Source of the DNA: a virus
Taxonomy: Duplodnaviria > Caudoviricetes
Virus record (IMG/VR): IMGVR_UViG_3300020220_002267
Coordinates: 1 to 55,260 of that record
DNA length: 55,260 bases
Reading direction: 5' to 3' (one strand)
A program made the position numbers and the translations under genes. Under the pieces are notes generated by a model that was not told the origin of the DNA, made no database searches, and worked only from the letters and a program-made list of their open reading frames with translations. Position 1 is the first letter of the stretch. Every line of letters starts with the position of its first letter. Below, one piece after another: positions 1 through 44,677 of this stretch.

Positions 1-949
<949 letters not shown>

Positions 950-1054: not shown

Positions 1055-1125
1055 GGACGGGAGACACCAGCGAGAACACTCGCCCCCTGTGAGGGGGGCA
1101 CTTGGAACTCAAGGAGACAGACCAC

Positions 1126-3015
1126 ATGAACAACGATCTTCAGAAGCGTGTCGAGGCCCTGGGCCCGGCCGAGCGGCTCATCCAGACGCTGCTCACCCAC
1201 CAGGACCACATGATCCACAACCGTCCGGGCATCGTGGTCCCGGCCCCGGGCACCGTCACGGGTGTCAAGTGGGAGGCTGCGTCGTACAAGGAGGAGGGTC
1301 CGGAGGGCGGGGCGAAGGAGAAGATCGCCTACTTCAACCGGAAGGTCGGGACCAAGACCCAGAAGGTTCGGGCGGGCGTCATCGGTGCGGACGGGAAGGT
1401 CCGTGACGGTGGCCGCATCGTCGGCGAGTACCGTCAGCCGGGGTTCTACCCGGAGGTCGCCTCGTGGGTGTACCGCCAGATCGCCGAGGTCTACAAGCTC
1501 GACAACGAGTTCGTGGCCCGGTGGGCTTCCTACGCCTTCGGCCAGGAGCACAAGGATCTGAAGGTCGCCCTGGCCGCGTTCCTCCTCGTTCAGACCCGCC
1601 GGGGTGATCCGGTGGTCGAGGACGGGAAGGTGCTGTTCTACGACGAGGACTTCCGCGATGTCGGTGAGGCCATGTGCCTCATCCGCCGGAACGACGGAAA
1701 GGATCTGAACCCGCGCCTCCTGCTGCGGGTCGGTGACCTCCTGCGTCTCCCGGGGATCGCGGCCATCAACCGTGAGCTTGGGTTCGGCCGTTCGGCCAAG
1801 AACCCGGCCCTCGGCCGGTGGGAGAAGGCCGTCGAGAAGTACCTCCGTCACCGGGAGGAGAACCCGAAGATGCTCGAGGGCATGGTGAAGGCGGGCATGC
1901 GTACCACGGTCATGGCCCTGGCGCGTGCCGTCCACTACAAGCCGGAGACGACTCGGTTCTTCGAGATCCTTCGCTGGAAGCAGGCTCAGTCCCAGGATGG
2001 TCGGCGTTCGCTGGCCATCGGGACCGAGGTGCAGGCTGCGGAGTCGTGGGAGGGTCTGACCGAGGCCGAGGTGTGCCAGAAGATCGTCGAGACGAAGCCG
2101 TCGTACAAGCGCATCGTGGGTCTGCTCCCGAAGGGGATGGGCCTCACCCGTGCGATCGTGGCGGCGGCGGTCGAGTCCGGTGCGATGTCCGACCAGGATC
2201 TCATCATCGCGACCCCGACCCTCGAGGATCTGGGCCTCATCAACGTGGAGCCGGTGAAGTCCCGGTGGGAGAAGGCTCTCGCCAAGGCCGAGAACCAGCG
2301 TGCGGTGAACATCGCCGCCCGCGTGAAGAACGTGGAGACGAAGGAGAAGCTGGCTGTCGCCGCCGACACCGCCGTCAAGAAGGCGGTCGAGGAGGTGATG
2401 AAGGGCCTCACCATCTACTTCATGGTCGACATCTCGGGCTCGATGCAGAACGCCATCGAGCAGTCCAAGGACTACATCGCCAAGCTCCTCGGCGGGTTCC
2501 CGCTCGAGAAGGTCAAGGTCTCCGTGTTCAACACGTCGGGCCGTGAGGTGCAGATCAAGCACGCTTCCTCGAAGGGTGTCGAGGCCGCCTTCCGTGGCAT
2601 CACGGCGAGCGGTGGCACCGACTACGGTGCGGGTGTCCGTGCGCTCCAGGCGTTCAAGCCGGGGGCGGACGAGGATGCCCTGTTCATCTTCGTCGGTGAC
2701 GAGCAGGCGGGGGAGTTCTCCCACGCGGTTCGTGGCTCGGGTCTCAACCCGGTCGCCTTCGGTCTCCTGAAGGTGTCGGGCGGGGAGCACGACCGGGCTG
2801 TCCGTCAGACGGCGGCCTCGCTCGGGATCCCGTGCTTCAACATCGACAAGGGCATCTTCGAGGACGTGTACTCGCTCCCGCGCACGCTCCGCAACATGAT
2901 CGCGGCCACCCCGGTCGTGCAGGGTGTTGTGGCGGCTCGCGCGGTCCCGCGTGTCTCCCTCGTCGAGCAGATCCTCAAGACGGACCTGCTCAAGAAGCCC
3001 CATTTCGCGCTGTAG
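1126..3015 (+). CDS. VWA (MIDAS) domain protein with long helical N-terminal region, possibly TROVE/Ro60-like
   Basis: C-terminal VDISGSM, GGTDY, FVGDEQ MIDAS motifs; AAGGAG Shine-Dalgarno before ATG 1126. Confidence 0.8.
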   Translation: MNNDLQKRVEALGPAERLIQTLLTHQDHMIHNRPGIVVPAPGTVTGVKWEAASYKEEGPEGGAKEKIAYFNRKVGTKTQKVRAGVIGADGKVRDGGRIVGEYRQPGFYPEVASWVYRQIAEVYKLDNEFVARWASYAFGQEHKDLKVALAAFLLVQTRRGDPVVEDGKVLFYDEDFRDVGEAMCLIRRNDGKDLNPRLLLRVGDLLRLPGIAAINRELGFGRSAKNPALGRWEKAVEKYLRHREENPKMLEGMVKAGMRTTVMALARAVHYKPETTRFFEILRWKQAQSQDGRRSLAIGTEVQAAESWEGLTEAEVCQKIVETKPSYKRIVGLLPKGMGLTRAIVAAAVESGAMSDQDLIIATPTLEDLGLINVEPVKSRWEKALAKAENQRAVNIAARVKNVETKEKLAVAADTAVKKAVEEVMKGLTIYFMVDISGSMQNAIEQSKDYIAKLLGGFPLEKVKVSVFNTSGREVQIKHASSKGVEAAFRGITASGGTDYGAGVRALQAFKPGADEDALFIFVGDEQAGEFSHAVRGSGLNPVAFGLLKVSGGEHDRAVRQTAASLGIPCFNIDKGIFEDVYSLPRTLRNMIAATPVVQGVVAARAVPRVSLVEQILKTDLLKKPHFAL

Positions 3016-4929: not shown

Positions 4930-5229
4930 ATGGAGAACATCGTCGAGGGAATCAACCTGCCGGTCCGCGCTCTGGCGGACTTCGAGGCTCGTCTCAACGT
5001 GACCTTCGCGGGTCAGAACGGCGACCTGCCGGACCCGGTGGCGTTCGACGCCCCGGACGCTGACGTGAAGCGGTGGGCCACCGAGGCCGTCCGCAACGGC
5101 GGCATCCCGGGCATCGGGGCCAACGCGGGGGCGTCCTTCGACGACTTCGTCGTCGATCGCTTCCCGCCGAACGAGCAGCGGCCGTTCCGCCTGATCCAGC
5201 TTCGTCCGAAGACTCCGTTCGGAGCCTGA
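4930..5229 (+). CDS. Ubiquitin-like (beta-grasp) modifier precursor ending RPKTPFG-A
   Basis: 99 aa, final strand LIQLRP then penultimate Gly; directly downstream of JAB and upstream of ThiF/E1. Confidence 0.65.
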   Translation: MENIVEGINLPVRALADFEARLNVTFAGQNGDLPDPVAFDAPDADVKRWATEAVRNGGIPGIGANAGASFDDFVVDRFPPNEQRPFRLIQLRPKTPFGA

Positions 5230-6220: not shown

Positions 6221-6226
6221 GTGCTC

Positions 6227-7171
6227 ATGCGGAAACCGTTCACACAGTCCGAGATCGCAGAGGTCGTCGCGAGCTATCAGTCGGGGCAGAGTGTTCGACA
6301 GATTGCAATACGGTTGAGCCGCGCCCCGAGTGCTGTGCAAGCTCATCTTCAAGAACAAGGGTTGCTGCGAACCCGCGAGGAGTACCTCGCGGCACGGGCC
6401 AACCACATTGAAATCACGCCCGAACTTCGGTCCATCCTTGACGGGATGCTCCTCTCGGATGCCTCGATTTCTTGTGGGAAAGGTCGTAAGAGTGCTGGGG
6501 TCACGCTCTGGCAGAGTCCTGTTCGGCGTGGGTGGCTGGAACAACTACAAGAAGAGCTTCGCACCCAGGGTGTGCTGTCCACCCTCGACGAGCGAACAAT
6601 CCAGCCCTCACAATTCAAAGACGGGCGGATGTCCCCTGGCGGGGACTACCTCGTCCTCAGAACACGAAGCTACGTCGAGTTCGTAGCAGAGCGGGAACGG
6701 TGGCACCTAAACGGAGCCAAAGCCCCTCCCCTCGATCTGCGGCTCACCCCCACGTCCCTTCGGCACTGGTTTTGTGGGGACGGCACGGGAGGCGACCAGA
6801 AAGGTACGCTTGGCCTTTACACCAACGGCTTCACCGCAGCAGATGTTGACCGACTGGTAGCCCTCCTTCAGTCGGATCTCAACATCGAAGCCACCCGCCT
6901 CGTCGACCAGCGGGGGCACTCGAGGATTCTCATCGGGAAGCGCGACATGGCTGTCCGCGTGCAAGACCTCATCGGGGTTCAGGTTGTGCCCTGTTGTGCG
7001 TATAAGTTCCAGCACGTTCGGCCCCTTCCAGAAACAGGAAAGGGTCGCCGTCTCCTGGAGTCAACTCTCATCGCCGTGAAGCAAGATCGAGGCACCTGCA
7101 CGATGCGCGAAGCGGCGAAAAGACACGGTGTTTCCGTGTCAAAGGTGTGGAAGCTATGGCACGAATCGTAG
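6227..7171 (+). CDS. LAGLIDADG homing endonuclease with N- and C-terminal HTH
   Basis: ILDGMLLSDAS and HWFCGDG motifs, LYTNGFT; terminal HTH segments; more AT-rich codons than neighbours. Confidence 0.85.
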   Translation: MRKPFTQSEIAEVVASYQSGQSVRQIAIRLSRAPSAVQAHLQEQGLLRTREEYLAARANHIEITPELRSILDGMLLSDASISCGKGRKSAGVTLWQSPVRRGWLEQLQEELRTQGVLSTLDERTIQPSQFKDGRMSPGGDYLVLRTRSYVEFVAERERWHLNGAKAPPLDLRLTPTSLRHWFCGDGTGGDQKGTLGLYTNGFTAADVDRLVALLQSDLNIEATRLVDQRGHSRILIGKRDMAVRVQDLIGVQVVPCCAYKFQHVRPLPETGKGRRLLESTLIAVKQDRGTCTMREAAKRHGVSVSKVWKLWHES

Positions 7172-7728
7172 TGGTGGGAGTGGGGGCTTTGGGGAGCCAT
7201 TTCCTGCTCTTCGCTCGAAACATCCCCGCACAATTCCGTATCGTGGATATGGATAGGGTGGAACGTAAGAACGTCATGAGCCAGTTCCACACGAACATGG
7301 CCGTGGGAAAGAACAAGGCCGACGCGCTCAAGCAGGCGATGCAGGGTCTGTTCGGCATCAAGATCGACGCCGTTCCGCACCGGCTCACCACGGACAACGT
7401 GGAGCAGCTACTGGGTGGGGCCGACCTCGTGGTGGACTGCCTCGACAACGGGGCCAGCCGGAAGATCATCCAGAACTACGTGCGGGCCAAGGGCATCCCC
7501 TGTCTCCACGGGGCCCTGGCTCCCGACGGCGGGTTCGGGCGGGCGGTCTGGAGTTCGAACTTTGTGATTGACAACGAGAGTGGGGGTGTGGCAACCTGTG
7601 AGGATGGAGCCCACCTTCCCTTCATCACCATCGTCGCCTCTCATCTTGCCTTCGCCGTGCAGCGATTCCTCGCCACCGGAGAGCAAGTCAATTTCAACAT
7701 CTTCCCTGGCGGGGTCTCGCGCTTCTAG
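7156..7728 (+). CDS. ThiF/MoeB/E1-like adenylyltransferase
   Basis: IVVVGVGALGS, DMDRVERKNVMSQ, KNKA, VVDCLDN; candidate catalytic Cys in ATCED; no CxxC Zn motifs. Confidence 0.9.
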   Translation: MARIVVVGVGALGSHFLLFARNIPAQFRIVDMDRVERKNVMSQFHTNMAVGKNKADALKQAMQGLFGIKIDAVPHRLTTDNVEQLLGGADLVVDCLDNGASRKIIQNYVRAKGIPCLHGALAPDGGFGRAVWSSNFVIDNESGGVATCEDGAHLPFITIVASHLAFAVQRFLATGEQVNFNIFPGGVSRF

Positions 7729-8686
7729 CCGAGAGAAACGAGCAGATCGACGCACAGCACATCTCGATGTAGCGGCTCTCATCGAGGGATATCGTTCCGG
7801 ACTCAGTTCGGCGGAGTTGGCTTGTCGATTCGGGGTCGGTCGATCCACCGTCCTTTCCCGATTGCGAGAGGCGGGTGTGCATGTTCGCCGTCCTTCGGAG
7901 TGGGAGGAAAAGCCACTTGCTCTGTCACCGGAGCGACTGGAACGTCTCACCGAGATCGTGGATGGGTTGATGCTAGGAGATGGGCATCTTCGCCGCCTTG
8001 GCGGCTTGAGACTTGAGCAGAGTCATGTTCGACGCGGGTGGGTCGAAGACGTTCAGCGTCACCTTGCGGATTTGGGAGTGTTGAGCACCCTCGATGAAGT
8101 GATCCGATCTGCCCGTGTTCGTCCTGATGGCCGTGTGCTCCCCCCATACACGGGATGCACCCTTCGGGTGCCTGCCTACGTCGAGCTTAGGGAGTTGCGA
8201 CAGCGGTGGTATCCCAACGGGGTGAAGTGTGTTCCAGAAGATGTGCGACTAACAGCAGCATCAGTCGCGGACTGGGTAAGCGGAGATGGGACCGGCAACT
8301 CGGCTGGGGGTTTGATCCTCTGCACGGATGGCTTCACGGAACAGGATGTTCGACATCTCATCTGCCGTCTCCGGGAGACATTCGGCGTGCGGGCTCGCAC
8401 AGTCTTCTCTGGCGGGGGGAGACCGAAGATCGGGATCCTTCGGAAAGATGATGTCCTCCATCTACGAGACATTTTGCTTCCCCACATGTCGGCGTGCTGC
8501 CACTACAAGTTTCGACACGCACGGGCTGCACAGAAACGAGGAACACTATCGGAGTTCGAAGTTCGAGACATCCGAGCGAGGTACGAAGCGGGGGTGGTGC
8601 TCGCCGTGCTCGCAAATGAATATGGGCTAAGCCGTGCAGCCATCAACAACATCGGGATGCGAAAAGTCTACAAATGGGTGCCCTGA
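7604..8686 (+). CDS. Second LAGLIDADG homing endonuclease with HTH domains (start uncertain, overlaps E1 3' end)
   Basis: IVDGLMLGDGHL, DWVSGDG, LCTDGFT, WYPNGVKCVP; similar to 6227..7171. Confidence 0.8.
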   Translation: MEPTFPSSPSSPLILPSPCSDSSPPESKSISTSSLAGSRASSREKRADRRTAHLDVAALIEGYRSGLSSAELACRFGVGRSTVLSRLREAGVHVRRPSEWEEKPLALSPERLERLTEIVDGLMLGDGHLRRLGGLRLEQSHVRRGWVEDVQRHLADLGVLSTLDEVIRSARVRPDGRVLPPYTGCTLRVPAYVELRELRQRWYPNGVKCVPEDVRLTAASVADWVSGDGTGNSAGGLILCTDGFTEQDVRHLICRLRETFGVRARTVFSGGGRPKIGILRKDDVLHLRDILLPHMSACCHYKFRHARAAQKRGTLSEFEVRDIRARYEAGVVLAVLANEYGLSRAAINNIGMRKVYKWVP

Positions 8687-8850
8687 TCGACGACGAGACG
8701 GGGATGGGTGCCGCCACCTGCGAGGATGGAGAACACCTGCCGTTCATCACCACCGTCTCGAGCTACATGGCTGCCTCGATTCAGCGGTTTCTGAAAGACG
8801 GCCGAAAGGTCGGCTTCCAGGTGCATCCCGGCGGAGTGATGGTCATCTGA
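8686..8850 (+). pseudogene. Displaced original 3' end of ThiF/E1 gene
   Basis: Translates IDDETGMGAATCEDGEHLPFITTVSSYMAASIQRFLKDGRKVGFQVHPGGVMVI*, colinear with the E1 C-terminus at 7567..7728. Confidence 0.85.
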
Positions 8851-8924
8851 GTTGAGGTGGGGGGTTGCCGCCTTCCACCAGTCGGGTAGTAGTGGATGTC
8901 AGAAGCGTTCTTCGACAACTCAAC

Positions 8925-9068
8925 GGCAGGGCCGCCCCGGAGTGGGGCAACCGGTACATAACCGGTCGCAACAGCGACCCGGCTCATCACACTCGCTCCT
9001 TCCTAACCCGAGGGAGCACAACGATGATCCTACAAGCCCGCCAGGTGCAACTCCTGGACCTGCCACCA
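8925..9068 (+). ncRNA. tRNA-like RNA, anticodon CAU, with a 74-nt structured insert in the variable loop and encoded ACCA
   Basis: Acceptor ggcagg/cctgcc+ACCA; D arm gcccc/ggggc; anticodon arm accgg-tacataa-ccggt; T arm ccagg-tgcaact-cctgg. Confidence 0.7.
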
Positions 9069-9209
9069 TTGACCGTCCACTTTGGCAAGCGCACAAGCAG
9101 GTTGGTTCAACTCCAACATTTTCCTCCAAAACTGGAAAATATGCTCCGTGGTGGAGCAATCGATTCATACTCGATCAAAAACAACACGCTTGCCTACTCG
9201 GATGGTCAA
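9069..9209 (+). ncRNA. Circularly permuted tRNA(CAU)-like RNA (3' half first), possibly Y-RNA-like
   Basis: Order: T arm 9101-9117, acceptor 3' strand+UCCA 9118-9128, spacer, acceptor 5' strand 9134-9140, D arm, anticodon arm atcga-ttcatac-tcgat; closed by 8-bp and 10-bp stems. Confidence 0.75.
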
Positions 9210-9245
9210 ACCCTTTCCTCGCCCACAACGGTAAGCCCACAAGCA

Positions 9246-9318
9246 GCGTGAGTAGCTCATCAGGTAGAGCGTCGGGCCAACAACCCGAAGGTAGCTGGTT
9301 CGAGTCCAGCCTTATGCC
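9246..9318 (+). tRNA. Atypical tRNA: initiator-Met-like body with anticodon loop CCAACAA (AAC); possibly a pseudo-tRNA
   Basis: Full cloverleaf: gcgtgag/cttatgc, tagctca..ggtagagc, tcggg/cccga, gctgg-ttcgagt-ccagc; C at position 33; no CCA. Confidence 0.7.
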
Positions 9319-9350
9319 CCGAAAACTTCCCAGGCTTTCCAACTCGGACG

Positions 9351-9468
9351 AGGACCCCTTTCCCTGCCCACTACGAAGTGCCCACACGCCGCCGGGTAGT
9401 CCGGCACCACTCTGCTAAAGTGAATTCTGTGGGTGCGAATCCCACCGTCCCTCTCGCAAGAGGGGGTC
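9351..9468 (+). ncRNA. tRNA-like element (GCU anticodon loop) with non-canonical acceptor region
   Basis: D-like gccgg/ccggc, cact-ctgctaa-agtg, T arm gtggg-tgcgaat-cccac; outer stem ggacccctt/agggggtcc. Confidence 0.45.
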
Positions 9469-9504
9469 CGGCACTTCAACTCGGACAGGGAAGCCCTTCG
9501 CGTC

Positions 9505-9546
9505 GAGCCCTCCCCCTTCCTCAAGGGGCGAGGGCTCCGCCTTTTT
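9505..9546 (+). terminator. Terminator of the tRNA-like RNA cluster
   Basis: gagccctc-cccctt/aagggg-c-gagggctc hairpin, then cgccttttt. Confidence 0.7.
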
Positions 9547-9581
9547 GGGCCTCGGTGATGTTCGCATAGCCACGGCGGGAC

Positions 9582-9980
9582 ATGGAGGTCCGCACCGTGG
9601 CCGAACGTCGGATCGACATCTACATCAACGAAGAAGGCTGGATTGTTGATGTGCTCGGCTTCCCCGAGGACACCGCTGGTTGGTTCGAGCATCTGGAACT
9701 ACTCGCACACGCCCTGGAGGTGGGAGTCACCCCGCACCCCGAGGCGACCAGCGGGGACGTGCAGCAATTCCGATCCCCGGCAGGGACACTGACCTACACC
9801 GAACGCATCACGGTCGTGGTGGACATCGACGGCACCTACGTGTGGTCCAGCCACAACCAGTATGCCACCCGCGCCCTCCTTCAAGACGTGCTCAACCTCG
9901 CTTCGGGGGGCATGGAGGGGTTCGCGATCTTCGATGGTTCGGGTACGGGTCTTCACCACATCCCCATCGGTGAAGCGTGA
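9582..9980 (+). CDS. Hypothetical protein
   Basis: 132-aa ORF, GC3 bias, GTGA overlap with next gene. Confidence 0.6.
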   Translation: MEVRTVAERRIDIYINEEGWIVDVLGFPEDTAGWFEHLELLAHALEVGVTPHPEATSGDVQQFRSPAGTLTYTERITVVVDIDGTYVWSSHNQYATRALLQDVLNLASGGMEGFAIFDGSGTGLHHIPIGEA

Positions 9981-10669
9981 AGCCCAAGCACATCGAAGCC
10001 CGAATCAAGCAGTGCATCGCCATCGCGGAGTGCTCCCCCTGCCCTCGGCGGAAGTTCGGAGCCTTGCTCCTGGAGCCGGTCCGCAACGTCCTCCTGATGG
10101 ACGGCTACAACGGCGGCCCTCGAGGCGGGGGTGGCATCTGTGGGGGAGACCGGTGCCTCCGAGATGGCCTCAAGCCCGAGGACGTCGAGATTCGGGGACC
10201 GAACGGTGTGGACGACCCCGACCCCGAGGACGCCTGGATCTACGTGAAGGGGAAGCAGGTGTCCCTCCCCATCGTCATCGACGGCGTCGAGCACTACAAG
10301 TCGCACGGATGGCGGGACGAGTGCCTGGAGTACCGCGAGAAGCTCCTGGCGGAGAACCCGCCCGTTCCCTCGGGCACCCGGTACGAGATCGGGTGTCACC
10401 ACGCCGAGATGAACGTCGTCACCAACGCCGCTGCCCAGGGTGTCGCTACGGCGGGGGCCTGGCTCATCGTCACCGGGGAGCCGTGCATCCTCTGTGCGAA
10501 GCTCATCCACCACGCGGGCATCTCGAAGGTCATCTGCGTGAAGGGCGGCTTCATGGGTGGAGACGAAGGCCCGAAGTACCTGCGGAAGCACCAGGTCGAG
10601 GTCGAGTACGTCGAGGGTCCGCCGGACCCCAGGCTCGTCCCGGTTCAGGCAAACACCTCGACAACGTAG
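9977..10669 (+). CDS. dCMP deaminase family protein with internal insertion
   Basis: SPCPRRKFGA, GYNG, HAEMN and PCILC Zn motifs. Confidence 0.9.
   Translation: MKPKHIEARIKQCIAIAECSPCPRRKFGALLLEPVRNVLLMDGYNGGPRGGGGICGGDRCLRDGLKPEDVEIRGPNGVDDPDPEDAWIYVKGKQVSLPIVIDGVEHYKSHGWRDECLEYREKLLAENPPVPSGTRYEIGCHHAEMNVVTNAAAQGVATAGAWLIVTGEPCILCAKLIHHAGISKVICVKGGFMGGDEGPKYLRKHQVEVEYVEGPPDPRLVPVQANTSTT
10643..10669 (+). promoter_or_regulatory. Class-1 promoter motif GTTCAG-N16-CGTAG
   Basis: In the 3' end of the deaminase gene, 22 nt before ATG 10691. Confidence 0.65.
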
Positions 10670-13670: not shown

Positions 13671-13763
13671 GAGCGCGATGATGTGAGCGGTGGCGGGTCC
13701 CTCCGGGGGCCGTGGGTTCGACTCCCTCCACCCCCAGAAGGGTGCCGACACGACATCGCGGTC
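13671..13763 (+). ncRNA. Small tRNA-mimic / Y-RNA-like RNA
   Basis: Terminal stem cgcgatg/catcgcg enclosing a gtccc/ggggc hairpin, a T-loop ggg-TTCGACT-ccc and a closed hairpin caccc/gggtg. Confidence 0.55.
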
Positions 13764-16304: not shown

Positions 16305-17345
16305 CTACCGAGCCAGAGGAGCGGTCACTCCGGCGGACGGAGCCACCTCGGCCTCGAGCCGCTCGATGGCGTAGCTGAAGTGAGGCACGAGGTAGCCGCT
16401 CTCGTCGAGCGTGGCGTGGAGGATGCCCGTGCTGAACTTGTACTTCCGGCCCGTCTCGACCTGGGTGACCTCGACGTTCGAGATGTGCGGCGGGAAGTTC
16501 TCGGGGTAGGCGAGTTGGGGCTTGACCATGGCGAAGTCGGCGAACCAGCCGCTCACCAACACCTGGCTGCCCGACCCGCACCGCGTCTCGGTGTAGATGC
16601 GCTTCCAGAAGTCCACATCCACTTCGCCAGCGACGGCAGCCCGGATCTTCTGGAGGTGCGGACGAATTCTCGCGAACCACGCAGCCGCCTTGTCGAGCCG
16701 AGCCGCCACGGCGTCGAGGTGCCCGAGGAGGTTGTCCCAGTCCTGGACCGTCCCCTCGACCCGCACCTTGGAGATGCCGCACATCAGCATGCTGTAGTTG
16801 TAGTAGGGGCTCACAGCATCGCAGAAGGCCGCCGCAGCCGCGATGTCGTAGCTCTCGGTCGCCGTCGAGAACTCGGGGAGGAACAGGTCCACTCCCATCG
16901 GCACGATGTCCCGAAGCTGCCCCACGAAGTCGCGAGGGTCGATCCCGTCCTCGGCCCAGCCGTAGACGGTGATGTCCTTCTTGCCGGGGGAGTCGGTGAA
17001 CAGGGCGCGGTAGTGCTCCGTGTTCCTCTTGATGTGCCCCGCCATCTCGGCGAGCACGATGTACCAGATGACCGTGGGGCTGATCACGACCCCGTGGTGG
17101 GTGTTGTACGCATACGTCATGTAGTCGTAGTAGCCCTTGATGTAGGCGTCCGCGTTCTCCGGGACCGTGGACTTGATGATGGCCTTCTCCTTGAGCTTCT
17201 TGGGCCAATTCCTGACAGGCACCGGGATGTCGACGTACTCGGCACCCGTCAGGGTGTTCAGGAACTCGGCGCGGGTCTTCTGCTCCCTCCTGTGCGCGTG
17301 GATCTTGACCGGCTGGAGGGAGGCGTCGACAACGATCTCAGGCAT
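16305..17345 (-). CDS. DUF4419-like protein
   Basis: AYNTHHGVVISPTVIW, PEFST, YYNYSMLMCGISKVRVEGTVQDW, GSGSQVLVSGW. Confidence 0.7.
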   Translation of the reverse strand: MPEIVVDASLQPVKIHAHRREQKTRAEFLNTLTGAEYVDIPVPVRNWPKKLKEKAIIKSTVPENADAYIKGYYDYMTYAYNTHHGVVISPTVIWYIVLAEMAGHIKRNTEHYRALFTDSPGKKDITVYGWAEDGIDPRDFVGQLRDIVPMGVDLFLPEFSTATESYDIAAAAAFCDAVSPYYNYSMLMCGISKVRVEGTVQDWDNLLGHLDAVAARLDKAAAWFARIRPHLQKIRAAVAGEVDVDFWKRIYTETRCGSGSQVLVSGWFADFAMVKPQLAYPENFPPHISNVEVTQVETGRKYKFSTGILHATLDESGYLVPHFSYAIERLEAEVAPSAGVTAPLAR

Positions 17346-17375: not shown

Positions 17376-18704
17376 TCAGGCCAGCTTGTCGATCGCCTGG
17401 CGGATTCGAACCAGCCCTGCCTCGAGGGCTTCCGTGCTCACCGCACCCACGGAAATGCGGAACCACCCCGTGTCTTCCGTCAACCCGAACGCCTGGAAGG
17501 CGACCAGAGCCACCCGGGCCTCGTGAAGCAGGTACTGCCGGATGTCGTTGTTGGTCTTGAGCGTCATCCCGTTGGGGGATGACAGCCCGAGCACGTCGAA
17601 TCGGACCGAGGTGTAGATGGCCCCTTGTGGAGCCACCACCTCGACGGGGAGCCCGGCGGACTTCATGCCCTTGAAGAACATGTAGACCATCCCGAGCCGA
17701 AGCTGGAGCTTCTCGTGGAGTTCGGTTCGGAACTGGCTGTAGGCGGGCTCGTCGGCCAGGAACTTCGCGGCAGACGCCTGGACGGCTCGAGGAGCCCATC
17801 CTCCGATGTGGCCCATGAGGTCCCGCACCGGGTCGTACAGGTGCGGGGGGACGACGGCCCACCCGAGCCGAAGCCCCGTGCCCACCATCCACTTCGAGAT
17901 GGCGTCGATGTAGATCGCCCAGGGGGCGATCTCGGGCACCAACTCGATGGGGTGGTAGAACTTGTACTCCCCGAACGCCAGGGGCCAGTACACCTGGTCG
18001 AACAGCATGTAGACGGGGCGACGGTCCGGCCCCCGCTTCATGTTCTCCGACACGATGGCATCACAGATGCTCCGCAACCCCTCCTTCGAGATGACCGTCC
18101 CGCAGGGGTTGAGCGGGCTGTTCAGACAGAACAGGTGGACATCGGGGTCCGAGATCGCCTCCGCCACCTGGTCGGGCGTCGGCATGAAGTTCGTCCCGGC
18201 CGAGGTCGGGAGAGGCACACACTCGGCCCCACAGAGCTTCGTGTAGTAGTCGTTGTTCCAGCTTGGGACCGGGTAGACGACCTTCTCCCCGGGCTTCAGG
18301 AGCGCCCGGAACACCCCGTAGATGGGAGGCCGGGCCCCACCACAGATGACCACGGACTTCGCGGGGAACCGGATGTTGAGTTCCCGCTCGTAGAAGTCCA
18401 TCACCGCCTGTTGAAGCTCGGGAAGCCCGTCGGACGGAGGGTACTGGTTGCGACCCGCCAGCACCTCTGAAGCGAGGTCCGACAGGAACGACTCGGGAGC
18501 CCGGAACTGCTCGGGGGCGAAGTCCCCCACCGTCAGGTCACAGACCTCGACCCCCGTGGCCTTCAGCGCCCTCGCCTCGGAAGCTGCCGCCAAGATGCGC
18601 GACCCCTCCATCGTCAGGACTTCGTGCGAGAGGGCCTTCTCCCGCAAGTCGCGGGTGGTGGCGGGGTCACTGCCGGGAAGGAAATCAGACACACGGATGG
18701 GCAT
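17376..18704 (-). CDS. PLP-dependent aminotransferase class I/II (aspartate aminotransferase-like)
   Basis: YPPSDGLPEL, LNSPLNPCG, FDQVY, ISKWMVGTGLRLGW, PQGAIY, WFRIS. Confidence 0.92.
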   Translation of the reverse strand: MPIRVSDFLPGSDPATTRDLREKALSHEVLTMEGSRILAAASEARALKATGVEVCDLTVGDFAPEQFRAPESFLSDLASEVLAGRNQYPPSDGLPELQQAVMDFYERELNIRFPAKSVVICGGARPPIYGVFRALLKPGEKVVYPVPSWNNDYYTKLCGAECVPLPTSAGTNFMPTPDQVAEAISDPDVHLFCLNSPLNPCGTVISKEGLRSICDAIVSENMKRGPDRRPVYMLFDQVYWPLAFGEYKFYHPIELVPEIAPWAIYIDAISKWMVGTGLRLGWAVVPPHLYDPVRDLMGHIGGWAPRAVQASAAKFLADEPAYSQFRTELHEKLQLRLGMVYMFFKGMKSAGLPVEVVAPQGAIYTSVRFDVLGLSSPNGMTLKTNNDIRQYLLHEARVALVAFQAFGLTEDTGWFRISVGAVSTEALEAGLVRIRQAIDKLA

Positions 18705-43681: not shown

Positions 43682-44677
43682 CTATCGAGCCAGGAACCAC
43701 TCCCGAGCCCTCGTCTGGACCGCCTTTTCGACCTGGTTCCACACGAGCCCGGAAGCCTCAAGCTCAGCCTCCGACTCCTTCTTCACGTCCGCCGTGACCC
43801 ACTGGAGGAACTTGCCCGTGAGCTTCGGGTCCTTGATGTCACCACACGCAACGGTGAGGCCCTGCCCGAGCCGGGCATCCGTGACCATCAGGCCCACGAA
43901 CCCTCCGACCGACGTGACCACCTCGGGGGCCACCTGGACGGCCTCCTTCACCCGCGTCGTGCGGTGCTTCTCGCCCTTGGCCTTGAACATGAGCCGAGCG
44001 AGCCTCTCAGGCATACGACCATTGGCGACCGACACCGGGTAGAGCACCACGCCCTCCCCCATGCCCGTGACGCCGAAGGCAGCCTTCACCCACGGGTCCT
44101 CCTTCTCGACCGCTTCCACAACCCCGTTGAGGAGGTCGGCAGCGACCTGAAGGCTTCCCTCGTTGGCGTAGTCGAGCCAGAAGTGAACCCCGTCCATCCA
44201 CGGGAGCACGTAGACGCCCGGGATGACGTGCGGGTTGACGTAGGACGCGATCTCCATCGGGTCGGTGACGACCACGGCTCCCTCGCCGTCCCCCACCTGG
44301 ATGGCGAACACGGCGAAGAGCTTGCCGGGGAGAGCGGAGATGGCCATCCCCGGCTCGACACCGGGGCCACACCACTCACCGAACACCGTGAAGCCCGCAG
44401 GGAGCTTCCGGAACGCCGCCTCGTGGAGATGAGCCCACTTCGAGAAGCCCTTGAGGTCGGCCTCAGGCGTGAGGATGGTCTCCCGGCTCTGGGTCACGAT
44501 GCCATCGGCGTGAACCTGCACGGCACAATTCGTCCCGTGGAGCTTGACCTTCGCCTTGTAGAGCACCTTGGGGAGTGGAGCACCGCCCTCTTCGGGAGTC
44601 AGGGCGGCGAGGTGATTGAGCGTGCGAACGACGTTGTGGAGAAGCTCGATGCTGCTCCATGCGATGTGCGTAGCCAC
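43682..44677 (-). CDS. RNA ligase (Rnl2-like nucleotidyltransferase)
   Basis: KLHGTN, QSR, FGEW, VFAI, EGVV, FKAK motifs. Confidence 0.85.
   Translation of the reverse strand: MATHIAWSSIELLHNVVRTLNHLAALTPEEGGAPLPKVLYKAKVKLHGTNCAVQVHADGIVTQSRETILTPEADLKGFSKWAHLHEAAFRKLPAGFTVFGEWCGPGVEPGMAISALPGKLFAVFAIQVGDGEGAVVVTDPMEIASYVNPHVIPGVYVLPWMDGVHFWLDYANEGSLQVAADLLNGVVEAVEKEDPWVKAAFGVTGMGEGVVLYPVSVANGRMPERLARLMFKAKGEKHRTTRVKEAVQVAPEVVTSVGGFVGLMVTDARLGQGLTVACGDIKDPKLTGKFLQWVTADVKKESEAELEASGLVWNQVEKAVQTRAREWFLAR

What the first reader, a model, noticed from the sequence alone, without database searches (positions are those of the whole stretch)
8925..9546. Polycistronic array of four non-canonical tRNA-like RNAs, three related to tRNA-Met
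Seen: four elements back to back (8925, 9069, 9246, 9351) and one terminator, with no ordinary tRNA among them. Two have CAU loops and one has an initiator-type anticodon stem. The window also encodes a divergent EF-Tu, an RNA ligase and a possible Ro-like protein. Inference: a translation-directed module, either decoys/replacements against host anticodon nucleases or an alternative Met-delivery system.
Basis: inference. Interest (0 to 1): 0.7.

Follow-up and report, generated by a model that had tools for sequence, protein, structure and literature searches.

The report
Phage array of Y-RNA-like tRNA mimics
Four tRNA-shaped non-coding RNAs, each fused to the same conserved helix but wired in a different order, sit in one operon of a giant-phage fragment just downstream of a hidden relative of the RNA-binding Ro60 protein, so they most likely form phage Ro/Y-RNA-type particles and are not ordinary tRNAs.

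Summary
The four elements and the single terminator are real (8925-9546, + strand). One claim fails: element 3 is called as a tRNA by ARAGORN and by Rfam (59 bits), although it has C33 and an anticodon that differs in an 82%-identical relative.

All four share one helix, "module M": two stems around an internal loop, with 3' NCUCG-G and 5' CC-AC. It is joined to a tRNA-like body in four topologies:
- e1: open acceptor with ACCA, M as a closed giant variable arm.
- e2: circularly permuted, acceptor closed by a loop that starts U-CCA.
- e3: M formed by the leader and trailer around a whole tRNA.
- e4: M entering at the D arm, with an acceptor-like hairpin.

The family recurs in more than 20 jumbo-phage contigs with very strong covariation (25 of 28 pairs compensatory; 0 of 500 shuffles). 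It always follows a cassette of VWA protein, p339, p99 and a ThiF-like gene. The VWA protein (1102-3015) is missed by Pfam TROVE, but its fold matches Ro60 best.

Best reading (about 0.55): a divergent phage Ro60/Y-RNA (YrlA-like) system. It is not a YrlA member (Rfam 9.9 bits against a cut-off of 69). Binding and expression are untested. This is a new variant of a known kind.

The parts
8883..8924 (+). Conserved leader upstream of e1; its role is unknown (a promoter of a non-sigma70 type, or a processing site)
   Evidence: Nearly identical to L178, with 3 differences in about 42 nt, while the sequence further upstream diverges. No sigma-70-like promoter was found in 8500-9900.
8925..9068 (+). 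e1, 'type H' tRNA-like RNA. Parts: open acceptor GGCAGG/CCUGCC followed by an encoded ACCA; D-like hairpin 8934-8948; anticodon-like arm 8950-8966 (loop UACAUAA, A33); giant variable arm holding a closed module M (..CACUCG-hairpin..); UACAAG linker; T arm 9041-9057 (loop UGCAACU).
   Evidence: Read. In L178 the acceptor pair changes A-U to G-C on both sides, and the variable-arm loop varies while its stems hold. In a family of 23 type-H RNAs, 20 of 23 RNAalifold pairs have compensatory changes. NCCA tails occur in 13 of 34 selected units. ARAGORN and Rfam do not call it.
9069..9209 (+). e2, 'type 1' circularly permuted tRNA mimic. Order: module M from the 5' and 3' ends (9069-9091 with 9187-9209); CACAAGCAG linker; T arm 9101-9117; 7-bp acceptor closed by loop UCCAAAACU (9118-9140); AU; D arm 9143-9157; anticodon-like arm 9159-9175 (UUCAUAC).
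   Evidence: R1 gives 101.1 bits, but e2 was a seed sequence. In the 30-unit alignment, 96.5% of cells are paired, 25 of 28 pairs have double changes and 0 of 500 shuffles reach this. L178 changes the D stem U-A to C-G and swaps 4 of 5 anticodon-stem pairs.
9217..9353 (+). e3, 'type 2': module M formed by leader (9217-9237) and trailer (9333-9353) around a complete cloverleaf tRNA at 9246-9320 (anticodon loop CCAACAA, C33, GGG/CCC stem).
   Evidence: ARAGORN; Rfam tRNA 59.3 bits. R1 matches the full model at 30.7 bits, E 1.1e-6, and e3 was not in the seed. In L178 the body is nearly invariant but the loop is CCACAAA and the discriminator changes C to A.
9360..9492 (+). e4: module M (9360-9382 with 9470-9492); CACACGCC linker; D-like hairpin 9391-9405; anticodon-like arm 9407-9423 (CUGCUAA); T arm 9429-9445 (UGCGAAU); acceptor-like closed hairpin 9448-9465.
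   Evidence: Rfam tRNA partial match 25.1 bits, below the cut-off of 29, model positions 10-63. R1 matches the full model at 26.5 bits, E 1.5e-5, not in the seed. In L178 the hairpin becomes UCCCCC-GAAA-GGGGG with paired changes. A related head with a different hairpin is seen in other lake contigs.
9505..9546 (+). Intrinsic terminator that closes the array
   Evidence: Terminator scan. In L178 the stem changes in a compensatory way.
1102..3015 (+). Ro60-like protein, 637 aa: an alpha-helical repeat N-terminal part (with a beta-rich insert at about residues 43-111) plus a C-terminal VWA domain with a DxSxS MIDAS motif
   Evidence: VWA_2. Pfam TROVE is negative. AF2 model pLDDT 80.7. The Foldseek PDB top 10 are all Ro60/TROVE entries. 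The N-terminal part alone has Ro60s as the top 3 of 48,161 chains, at Z 8.8, 7.8 and 6.1. BFVD hits include Ro-like and TROVE phage proteins.
3315..4334 (+). p339, a conserved cassette gene of unknown function
   Evidence: No match in Pfam, NCBIfam or PHROGs. It follows the Ro-like gene in 11 related loci.
4930..5229 (+). p99, a conserved cassette gene of unknown function
   Evidence: tblastn finds it in 12 related loci, between p339 and ThiF. No family match. The protein atlas returns only unnamed viral clusters.
7147..7728 (+). ThiF-family (E1-like adenylyltransferase) gene, which lies immediately upstream of the RNA array in relatives
   Evidence: Pfam ThiF 4.1e-26; NCBIfam hits are all below their cut-offs; synteny.
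2..949 (+). EF-Tu, with its 5' end cut by the window (context only)
   Evidence: NF000766, 404.8 bits.
43682..44677 (-). RNA ligase, Rnl2-type family (context only; 34 kb from the array)
   Evidence: Pfam RNA_ligase 1e-11; phrog_548 7.9e-39.

Best explanation
The array is one transcription unit that encodes four tRNA-derived non-coding RNAs. They are neither ordinary tRNAs nor decaying ones. Each joins a tRNA-shaped body to the same roughly 20-bp irregular helix, module M: stem, then an internal loop with 3' NCUCG-G and 5' CC-AC.., then a second stem, then a YACA(A/C)GC linker. The strand is wired differently in each element:
- e1 has normal tRNA ends plus ACCA and carries M as a closed variable arm.
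- e2 is the circular permutation of that plan.
- e3 holds a whole tRNA between the two strands of M.
- e4 enters at the D arm.

Inferred mechanism. As in Ro60/Y-RNA particles, and most closely the bacterial YrlA RNAs, module M would be the docking site for the phage's own divergent Ro60-like ring protein (1102-3015). Possibly other products of the conserved cassette (p339, p99, the ThiF-like enzyme) bind there too. The tRNA-like body would be the part presented to tRNA-recognising machinery. In units with a 7-bp acceptor and an encoded NCCA, RNase P and CCA-end handling could open the closed acceptor, as documented for Mycobacterium smegmatis YrlA.

What is shown: the structures, their conservation and covariation, the permutations, the gene linkage, and the Ro60-like fold. 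What is inferred: binding of M by the Ro-like protein, processing, and the downstream effect (for example recruiting or blocking a host exonuclease, or another tRNA-binding factor, during infection).
For: RNA family is real.
- R1, built from 23 permuted units, finds e3 and e4 (not in the seed) over the full model at E 1.1e-6 and 1.5e-5. Nothing else in the 55 kb reaches E <= 0.1.
- It finds 27 units of 80 bits or more in 33 related loci.
- On 30 units, 96.5% of cells are paired and 25 of 28 pairs change on both sides. No shuffle of 500 reaches this, and slid controls give 33-50% paired.
- For type H, 20 of 23 pairs are compensatory.
- The 82%-identical relative L178 keeps all four elements at 91% identity, with paired changes in e1, e2, e4 and the terminator.

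Bodies are tRNA mimics and not decoders.
- The anticodon triplets of e2 and e3 differ in L178.
- Only 11 of 30 type-1 loops have U33 plus R37.
- Relatives carry full sets of ordinary tRNAs beside the array: 36 in L070 and 35 in L074.

tRNA-end mimicry.
- N-CCA directly follows the 3' acceptor strand in 12 of 30 type-1 units, where about 0.5 would be expected.
- It does so in 13 of 34 selected type-H units.
- This parallels M. smegmatis YrlA, which has a 7-bp acceptor, is cut by RNase P and gains CCA in vivo (PMC4201824, section 8, read).

Ro60-like protein.
- The Foldseek PDB top 10 are all Ro60/TROVE entries, E 1.3e-8 to 2.6e-6, over 534-578 aligned columns.
- For the N-terminal part alone, the three Ro60 representatives rank 1-3 of 48,161 chains: Z 8.8 with 250 aligned, 7.8 with 266, and 6.1 with 288. 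The next chain scores 5.6.
- BFVD hits include 'Ro-like RNA binding protein' (Gordonia phage VanLee) and 'TROVE domain-containing protein'.
- The VWA domain has invariant D443, S445 and S447.

Linkage.
- The order Ro-like, p339, p99, ThiF-like, RNA array is conserved in loci that share only 50-60% protein identity.
- The protein is present in 13 of 15 records reached through the RNA; the 2 misses are fragments 18-28% complete.
- Full-model R1 hits occur in 14 of 15 protein-positive records and in 1 of 8 protein-negative records; that one is a 27%-complete fragment.

Precedent. Ro60 with adjacent Y-RNA-like genes is known in phages (PMC4201824; PMC12135203, passages read).
Against: - No binding or expression data exist. 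No RNA run holds the stretch.
- Pfam TROVE does not match the protein. A PDB profile search finds only weak VWA hits.
- The Ro60 structural matches have low TM (about 0.2) and large rmsd (14-16 A). Foldseek on the N-terminal model alone (pLDDT 67) gives nothing at E <= 0.001, only generic helical repeats. Z values of 6-9 are in the range common for helical repeats.
- The RNAs lack the GNCGAAN0-1G / CGAA motif that marks known bacterial and phage Y RNAs. Only e4 has ACGAAG, and L178 loses it.
- Rfam YrlA scores 9.9 bits against a cut-off of 69.
- Co-occurrence and synteny could simply reflect shared descent within one phage clade.
- In e3-type units the same helix flanks what looks like a normal tRNA. 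In L070 and L074 it is a tRNA-Met(CAU). That fits a processing signal as well as it fits a protein platform.
- In one record (G028) the best type-1 RNA lies about 230 kb from the Ro-like gene.
Confidence: 0.55

Rival explanations
1. Processing-signal model. Module M is a double-stranded cleavage signal (RNase III-like, or a phage endonuclease possibly acting with an RNA ligase) that cuts the polycistronic transcript. The products mature into working tRNAs. The permuted e2-type genes would then become tRNAs either after RNase P and 3'-end processing (two-piece tRNAs held together by M) or after end-joining.
For: - M is made of transcript-flanking strands about 20 bp long with an internal loop, around units that include genuine-looking tRNAs: window e3 and tRNA-Met in L070 and L074.
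- The permuted units have a 7-bp acceptor and a D arm with GG, preceded by two linker nt (UA in most units; AU in e2). N-CCA sits at the right place in 12 of 30.
- About half of the type-H loops look canonical and carry varied triplets (read by eye).
- The window encodes an RNA ligase.
Against: - 19 of 30 permuted units lack U33 plus R37 or a 7-nt loop.
- Several acceptors are capped by plain tetraloops (UUCG, GAAT, GAAA) with no CCA.
- The anticodons of e2 and e3 drift between close relatives.
- The phages already carry full ordinary tRNA sets without M.
- In type H (e1), M is a closed internal arm, so cutting it would destroy the molecule.
- The loop nucleotides NCUCG and the closing CC:GG pairs are conserved in sequence, which points to specific recognition more than to a generic dsRNA cut.
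- By eye, the loop is not a bulge-helix-bulge motif.
Confidence: 0.2
2. Stand-alone decoy model. The RNAs are tRNA look-alikes that soak up host tRNA-targeting defence nucleases (anticodon nucleases, VapC-type toxins) or replace cleaved tRNAs, with no involvement of the Ro-like protein.
For: - The bodies are tRNA-shaped, with conserved arms but free anticodon triplets.
- They sit in the tRNA/translation region of jumbo phages.
- An RNA ligase is present in the window.
Against: - A decoy for an anticodon nuclease should keep the targeted loop, yet the loops are the least conserved part.
- The model does not explain the conserved module M, the permutations, or the fixed linkage to the four-gene cassette.
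Confidence: 0.15
3. The elements are decaying pseudo-tRNAs, or chance folds left over from a former tRNA array.
For: Three of the four are not called by tRNA finders, and e3 has C33.
Against: - The array is 91% identical to L178, higher than the 82% of the wider region that includes flanking genes, and the changes are compensatory.
- The family recurs in more than 20 contigs, with 25 of 28 covarying pairs.
Confidence: 0.02

Closest known systems
Bacterial/phage YrlA-type Y RNAs with Ro60 (Rsr), especially Mycobacterium smegmatis YrlA (Chen et al. 2014, PMC4201824; Rfam RF02553)
   Same: - The non-coding RNA is encoded near a Ro60-type gene.
- A stem is made from the 5' and 3' ends, and it carries a tRNA-like domain in the order T arm, closed acceptor stem, D arm (e2).
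- The acceptor is 7 bp. In M. smegmatis YrlA it is opened by RNase P and receives CCA.
- Several such RNAs are processed from one precursor.
   Different: - There is no GNCGAAN0-1G motif, and RF02553 scores 9.9 bits against 69.
- The basal helix leaves from the variable-loop position, and a full anticodon-like arm is kept. In YrlA the basal stem takes the place of the anticodon arm (section 6).
- The conserved loop is NCUCG on the 3' strand.
- The same helix occurs in four topologies within one operon.
- The partner protein is not recognisable by Pfam TROVE.
Thermus phage phiLo Ro60 with Yrl1/Yrl2 (PMC12135203; PDB 9KOP, 9L5Y)
   Same: - It is a phage-encoded Ro60 with two adjacent Y-RNA-like genes.
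- It is the best structural match of the window protein's N-terminal part: 9l5y_B, Z 8.8, and 9kop, E 1.3e-8.
   Different: - Sequence identity in the structural alignment is 17%.
- The Yrls are described as stem-bulge-stem RNAs with a CGAA motif (passages). They are not described as tRNA-shaped.
- The window protein is larger (637 aa against about 460) and has a beta-rich insert.
Circularly permuted tRNA genes (Cyanidioschyzon merolae type; review PMC3978253, search listing only)
   Same: In e2-type units the 3' half (T arm, 3' acceptor strand, N-CCA) lies upstream of the 5' half (5' acceptor strand, D arm, anticodon arm). The transcript ends pair with each other.
   Different: - By eye, the paired ends do not form a bulge-helix-bulge motif.
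- The break lies in a long variable arm.
- Many units have non-canonical anticodon loops or plain tetraloop caps.
- Such genes are known from eukaryotes and archaea, not from bacteria or phages (recalled).
Ordinary phage tRNA arrays
   Same: They share the genomic neighbourhood and strand. e3 is called as a tRNA, and its orthologues are tRNA-Met in some relatives.
   Different: The elements carry module M, are permuted, have unstable anticodons, have G at T-loop position 55 in e1 and e4, and are not called by ARAGORN or Rfam for 3 of the 4.

Membership tests
Canonical decoding tRNA | Cloverleaf recognised by tRNA finders or the covariance model | tested here: inconclusive
   e3 is recognised (ARAGORN; Rfam 59.3 bits). 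e4 gets only a partial match of 25.1 bits, below the cut-off of 29. e1 and e2 are not called.
Canonical decoding tRNA | 7-nt anticodon loop with U33 and purine 37 | tested here: not met
   e3 has CCAACAA (C33) and e1 has UACAUAA (A33). e2 (UUCAUAC) and e4 (CUGCUAA) conform. Family-wide, 11 of 30 type-1 units conform.
Canonical decoding tRNA | Anticodon kept between close orthologues | tested here: not met
   Against L178, e2 changes CAU to CAC and e3 changes AAC to ACA. e1 and e4 are unchanged.
YrlA / bacterial Y RNA (RF02553) | Match to the Rfam covariance model at the gathering score | tested here: not met
   Best score 9.9 bits against 69, covering a T arm only. No Y-RNA family appears at E <= 10 in 8700-9700, and none at gathering score in 10 related loci.
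YrlA / bacterial Y RNA (RF02553) | 5' motif GNCGAAN0-1G / CGAA (proposed Ro60 contact) | tested here: not met
   The motif is absent from e1-e3. e4 has ACGAAG without the leading G, and L178 has AAGAAG there. The motif is as defined in PMC4201824 section 6.
YrlA / bacterial Y RNA (RF02553) | tRNA-like module in the order T arm, closed acceptor stem, D arm, inside a stem made of the RNA's two ends | tested here: met
   This holds for e2 and 29 further units, with covariation in every helix. The extra anticodon arm and the different exit point are differences from YrlA.
YrlA / bacterial Y RNA (RF02553) | Encoded next to a Ro60 orthologue | tested here: inconclusive
   The array lies 6 kb downstream of a protein that is Ro60-like only at fold level, within a conserved cassette.
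YrlA / bacterial Y RNA (RF02553) | Physically bound by Ro60 | not testable with these tools
   Testing this needs EMSA, RIP or CLIP.
Ro60 / TROVE protein (for 1102-3015) | Match to the Pfam TROVE HMM (PF05731) | tested here: not met
   No match at E <= 1. The control search rings in D. radiodurans and B. thetaiotaomicron. The PDB profile search finds no Ro60.
Ro60 / TROVE protein (for 1102-3015) | Helical-repeat (HEAT) ring domain of the Ro60 fold | tested here: inconclusive
   Ro60s are the top 3 of 48,161 chains for the N-terminal model (Z 8.8, 7.8, 6.1; rmsd 14-17 A) and the top 10 in Foldseek for the whole model. However, TM is about 0.2, and Foldseek on the N-terminal model alone is not significant.
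Ro60 / TROVE protein (for 1102-3015) | C-terminal von Willebrand A domain with a MIDAS motif | tested here: met
   VWA_2 at residues 439-519. D443, S445 and S447 are invariant. Z is 14 against VWA domains over residues 432-601.
Circularly permuted tRNA gene | 3' half lies upstream of the 5' half, with the acceptor strands joined by a short intervening sequence after N-CCA | tested here: met
   In e2, AUUUUCC-UCCA-AAACU-GGAAAAU. N-CCA is in that position in 12 of 30 units.
Circularly permuted tRNA gene | Bulge-helix-bulge motif formed by the transcript ends, and maturation to a decoding tRNA | tested here: not met
   The paired ends form a loop of about 5 x 5 nt plus a 1-nt bulge, not two 3-nt bulges 4 bp apart (by eye). 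Maturation is not testable here.
tmRNA | tRNA-like domain plus a tag reading frame, detected by ARAGORN or Rfam | tested here: not met
   No tmRNA is found in the window.

The most novel reading that the evidence does not exclude
These are 'handle-bearing' tRNAs that are really used. Type-H RNAs such as e1 have an open 7-bp acceptor, A73, an encoded CCA and a CAU triplet. They, and RNase-P-opened permuted units such as e2, would be CCA-ended and aminoacylated. They would then be carried, through module M, by the phage Ro60-like ring and its cassette partners (the ThiF-like enzyme, p339, p99). Perhaps they are handed to the phage's own EF-Tu. The result would be a private pool of tRNA-like adaptors, protein-tagged and nuclease-protected, that the phage uses during takeover of translation. 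That would be the first circularly permuted or two-piece tRNA system in the bacterial virus world, and a new job for a Ro60-type protein.
Probability: 0.1. Interest if true: 0.92.

Novelty: new variant of a known kind. Interest (0 to 1): 0.7.

Why it matters
Ro60/Y-RNA particles are conserved from bacteria to humans, yet what the tRNA-like part of bacterial Y RNAs does remains open. If the reading is right, three things follow.

- A large clade of Ro60-like proteins has been hidden. More than 1,500 homologues turned up in metagenome searches. They are invisible to Pfam TROVE and PHROGs, and the one GenBank record annotates the protein as 'conserved hypothetical'.
- That clade is tied to a new RNA family in which a single helix is grafted onto a tRNA body in several circular permutations. 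This is a natural experiment that separates 'what must be a tRNA shape' from 'how the strand is threaded'.
- Jumbo phages would be investing an operon in tRNA mimicry next to their tRNA arsenals. This bears on how they take over or protect host translation and RNA decay.

The family also gives annotators a covariance-model target. These RNAs are unannotated in the one public phage record that has them.

Tried and rejected
- blastn of the array against GenBank phages: no match.
- RtcB: none in the window.
- TadA idea: I asked whether the deaminase at 9977-10669 could edit A34 of the 'Val(AAC)' tRNA. NCBIfam places it with ComEB / dCMP-dCTP deaminases, all below their cut-offs, and not with TadA, so I dropped the idea.
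- phmmer and profile searches of PDB with the VWA protein: only weak VWA hits.
- VIA second look at the whole model: filled by VWA domains at residues 433-602, so it says nothing about the N-terminal part.
- Foldseek on the N-terminal model alone: nothing at E <= 0.001.
- Protein atlas for p339 and p99: no usable hit, or only unnamed viral clusters.
- PHROGs: no family for the Ro-like protein, p339 or p99.
- p99 as a ubiquitin-like partner of the ThiF-like enzyme: its C-terminus is ..KTPFGA, with no GG, so the idea is unsupported.
- Sigma-70 promoter scan over 8500-9900: 0 sites.
- Expression: no RNA holder is listed for the stretch. All 24 listed runs are DNA or of unknown kind, and 22 carry lake-water or freshwater labels. 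The contigs laid on the stretch gave no ends or levels.
- R1 on e1: 7.9 bits, E 1.6, not significant. This is expected, because e1 is the permuted form.
- R1 partial hits covering model positions 37-111 fall across two adjacent ordinary tRNAs (for example L070:3188-3262 over tRNA-Lys and tRNA-Gln). I did not count them as family members.
- I did not build a separate covariance model for type H, because MAFFT mis-set the 5' ends. The type-H acceptor pairing therefore rests on my script's selection and on the A-U to G-C change in L178.
- No known ribozyme or other Rfam family appears in 8700-9700 at E <= 10, apart from chance-level rows.
- Supplementary tables of PMC4201824, which list phage YrlA RNAs, could not be seen. 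They might hold related phage RNAs.
Full report
WHAT IS THERE

The window is a complete IMG/VR record of 55,260 bp, about 64% G+C, which CheckV estimates at 11% of a genome. It is therefore a fragment of a jumbo phage. Runs that hold the stretch are labelled lake-water metagenomes.

Between the end of a ThiF-family gene and a 132-codon ORF lies a 620-nt non-coding stretch on the + strand. It folds far better than shuffles: -265.2 against -217.2 +/- 8.2 kcal/mol, z = -5.88, 0 of 20 shuffles as good. It ends in a terminator hairpin with a T run.

ARAGORN finds a single tRNA in the whole window, at 9246-9320, 'Val' AAC. Rfam confirms it at 59.3 bits. A permissive Rfam scan of 8700-9700 adds only a sub-threshold partial tRNA match at 9391-9445 (25.1 bits, D, anticodon and T arms) and no Y-RNA, tmRNA or ribozyme family.

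ANATOMY

These assignments were read and guided by the fold.

Elements 2, 3 and 4 are each enclosed by the same irregular helix, which I call module M. Its order is:
- stem 1;
- closing CC:GG pairs;
- an internal loop, 5' (C)AC.. and 3' (A/U)ACUC;
- stem 2;
- a single-stranded CACA(A/C)GC linker.

What sits on top of M differs in each element.

- e2 (9069-9209): T arm, then a 7-bp 'acceptor' closed by the loop UCCAAAACU, then AU, then a D arm, then a 5-bp/7-nt anticodon-like arm (UUCAUAC). This is a circularly permuted tRNA whose ends lie in an opened, very long variable arm.
- e3 (9217-9353): a complete cloverleaf (9246-9320) with C33, anticodon AAC and an initiator-like GGG/CCC stem.
- e4 (9360-9492): D-like hairpin, anticodon-like arm (CUGCUAA), T arm (UGCGAAU), then a closed 7-bp hairpin that can stand in for an acceptor.
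- e1 (8925-9068): the inverse of e2. It has an open acceptor GGCAGG/CCUGCC followed by an encoded ACCA, a D-like hairpin and an anticodon-like arm (UACAUAA). Its roughly 70-nt variable arm is a closed copy of module M (..CACUCG-hairpin..), followed by UACAAG and a T arm.

IS IT MORE THAN CHANCE, AND IS IT CONSERVED?

Homologues of the neighbouring VWA protein led to six jumbo-phage contigs of 142-436 kb. There blastn found e2-like and e3-like pieces, and reading the sequence showed many units of the same plan.

A degenerate pattern scan of IMG/VR gave 96 stretches. Regex filtering left 84 distinct hits, many of them ordinary tRNAs, and then 40 candidates. I picked 21 clear permuted units from these and added the window's e2 and one from L070.

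RNAalifold on these 23 units predicts 28 pairs, 24 with compensatory changes.

The covariance model R1 gave the following in the window:
- e2: 101 bits (a seed sequence);
- e3: full model, 30.7 bits, E 1.1e-6 (not in the seed);
- e4: full model, 26.5 bits, E 1.5e-5 (not in the seed);
- nothing else in the 55 kb at E <= 0.1.

R1 found 27 units of 80 bits or more in 33 loci. On 30 units aligned to the model, 96.5% of cells pair and 25 of 28 pairs change on both sides. No shuffle of 500 reaches this, and slid controls give 33-50% paired. The alignment is fitted to the model, which favours pairing, but the independent MAFFT/RNAalifold result agrees.

A metagenome scan brought in L178, a 140-kb contig that is 82% identical over 1,329 nt across the locus. 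Within the array, identity is 91%. The changes there are telling:
- e1 acceptor: A-U becomes G-C.
- e2 D stem: U-A becomes C-G.
- e2 anticodon stem: 4 of 5 pairs are swapped, while the triplet goes CAU to CAC.
- e3: the body is almost invariant, but the loop goes CCAACAA to CCACAAA and the discriminator C to A.
- e4 extra hairpin: UCCCUCU-CGCA-AGAGGGG becomes UCCCCC-GAAA-GGGGG.
- The terminator stem is compensated.

For e1, a script that looked for a 7-nt 5' partner of the strand after YACANG-T-arm sites returned 52 rows. I kept 31 rows of 111-143 nt and added the window, L178 and L069 by hand. RNAalifold on 23 of them gives 23 pairs, 20 of them compensatory, in the D-like hairpin, the anticodon-like arm, both stems of the closed module M and the T arm. 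NCUCG and ACA.G are invariant. MAFFT mis-set the 5' ends, so the acceptor is not in that consensus.

DECODERS OR MIMICS?

- In the 30 permuted units, 23 anticodon-like loops have 7 nt, and only 11 have U33 plus R37. The triplets are unrelated.
- e2 and e3 change their triplets between close relatives.
- The related phages carry 35-36 ordinary tRNAs next door.
- On the other hand, tRNA-end mimicry is kept. N-CCA directly follows the 3' acceptor strand inside the 'closed' acceptor in 12 of 30 permuted units, where about 0.5 would be expected by chance; e2 is one of them (U-CCA). Type-H units end in N-CCA in 13 of 34.

I conclude that these are tRNA mimics under selection for shape and ends, not for decoding. 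A minority with canonical loops leaves some room for real tRNA function.

THE NEIGHBOURING PROTEIN

ORF 1102-3015 (637 aa) has only a C-terminal VWA_2 hit. Pfam TROVE is negative. More than 1,500 homologues turned up in metagenome searches, and the top 120 are at least 60% identical.

- An AF2 model from 28 sequences has pLDDT 80.7.
- Its ten best Foldseek PDB matches are all Ro60/TROVE entries: the phage phiLo Trove domain at 1.3e-8, Xenopus Ro with RNAs at 2e-7, and human Ro60. They span 534-578 aligned columns, ahead of VWA-only hits, and D. radiodurans Rsr ranks 15th. However, TM is about 0.2 and rmsd 14-16 A.
- The VIA second look was swamped by the VWA domain.
- The N-terminal 431 residues, folded alone from 6 sequences (pLDDT 67), gave no significant Foldseek hit.
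- An exhaustive VIA search of 48,161 chains ranks the three Ro60 representatives first, second and third (Z 8.8, 7.8 and 6.1, with 250-288 aligned). The next chain scores 5.6.
- BFVD hits include 'Ro-like RNA binding protein' of Gordonia phage VanLee and a 'TROVE domain-containing protein'.

I read this as a very divergent Ro60-type protein. The evidence is at fold level only, and the scores are modest.

LINKAGE

tblastn shows a conserved order: Ro-like, p339, p99, ThiF-like, RNA array. It holds in L069-L072, L074, L080, L088, L126, L160 and L178, and partially in L073 (no ThiF-like hit) and L172. Protein identity among these loci is only 50-60%.

- The protein occurs in 13 of 15 records reached through the RNA pattern. 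The two misses are fragments 18-28% complete.
- It occurs in 3 of 11 records reached through an unrelated deaminase gene.
- Full-model R1 hits (E <= 1e-5) occur in 14 of 15 protein-positive records and in 1 of 8 protein-negative records. That one is a 27%-complete fragment.
- All ten records with units of 80 bits or more have the protein.
- In nine of those ten, such a unit lies within 10 kb of the gene. G028 is the exception.

These records are related to each other, so this is linkage, not proof of interaction.

The one GenBank phage record with the protein (Virus Rctr197k, 55% identity, 'conserved hypothetical') has an unannotated 82.6-bit unit downstream of its ThiF-like gene.

COMPARISON WITH WHAT IS KNOWN

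Ro60 with adjacent Y-RNA-like genes is established in bacteria and in several phages (PMC4201824 abstract and sections 3, 5, 6, 8, 10; PMC12135203 passages; PMC7824862 section 3.4.9 passage).

YrlA RNAs have a basal stem plus T arm, closed acceptor and D arm. M. smegmatis YrlA has a 7-bp acceptor, is cut by RNase P, and gains CCA in vivo.

The present RNAs work like that on paper, but they are not YrlA members:
- RF02553 scores 9.9 bits against 69.
- The GNCGAAN0-1G / CGAA motif is missing.
- The basal helix leaves from the variable-loop position, and the anticodon arm is kept.
- The same helix is used in four topologies.

Searches of the paper library for Ro60/phage/Y RNA/TROVE, for permuted tRNA/phage/tRNA-like, and for huge phages/tRNA-like/Ro60 turned up no description of such RNAs. 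The supplementary tables could not be seen.

VERDICT

The best explanation is a divergent phage Ro60/Y-RNA-type module, with confidence about 0.55.

The main rival is that module M is a processing signal and that some units mature into real, even permuted, tRNAs (about 0.2). Ro-independent decoys come next (about 0.15). Decay is excluded.

Novelty: a new variant of a known kind. Interest: 0.7.

Noticed in passing
window 6221-8850: Two LAGLIDADG_2 homing-endonuclease ORFs (6221-7171 and 7568-8686) flank or overlap the ThiF-like gene (7147-7728). The last 55 or so codons of ThiF are present twice. The copy at 8674-8850 is 91% identical to L178, which has one uninterrupted ThiF gene and no endonuclease. 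This looks like a homing-endonuclease insertion with a partial gene duplication. G+C drops to 0.59-0.60 across 6-10 kb.
   Followed up: partly
L070 and L074 (for example L070:12282-12361, 16648-16729, 18184-18267); L073:2234-2308: The related jumbo phages encode tRNAs with A34 anticodons beyond Arg(ACG): Ser(AGA), Leu(AAG) and Ser(ACT) (ARAGORN). Such tRNAs would normally need A-to-I editing with a broader specificity than bacterial TadA has.
   Followed up: no
L080:8566-8658: A bacterial small SRP RNA (Rfam 57.7 bits) is encoded directly after the Y-like RNA array in a 497-kb phage contig. A tRNA-Sec-like gene lies at L096:1856-1937.
   Followed up: no
window 13690-13745: An intergenic T-arm-like element (GUGGGUUCGACUCCCUC), followed by CCACCCCCA, gives weak hits with R1 (11.7 bits, E 0.16) and with YrlA (9.5 bits). 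It may be a tRNA 3' remnant or a minihelix.
   Followed up: partly
L069:16560-16620 and 16900-16960: Short acceptor-plus-T-arm 'minihelix' units that end in ..CCGGCACC or ..AGAGCACC lie between the larger units. A similar GUCCGGCAC string occurs twice in window e4 (9399-9407 and 9466-9474), which allows an alternative pairing of GCCGG (9391-9395).
   Followed up: no
window 9977-10669: This cytidine/dCMP-deaminase-family protein (230 aa) carries a large insertion: profile positions 5-101 are spread over residues 7-188. It has 66 relatives in viral contigs. Its best NCBIfam hits are ComEB and the anti-phage dCTP deaminase, both far below their cut-offs.
   Followed up: partly
window 9368-9449, in runs X11-X13: Other contigs from the same lake samples carry a related e4-like head with different flanks. 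They differ at 9407 (C to T, turning the C.A mismatch of the stem into U-A), 9410 (C to T) and 9416 (T to G, in the loop), and they have a different capped hairpin after the T arm.
   Followed up: no
window 2-949: The phage encodes a near-canonical EF-Tu (NF000766, 404.8 bits over the 315 residues present) directly upstream of the Ro-like gene. This adjacency is not seen in the related loci examined.
   Followed up: partly
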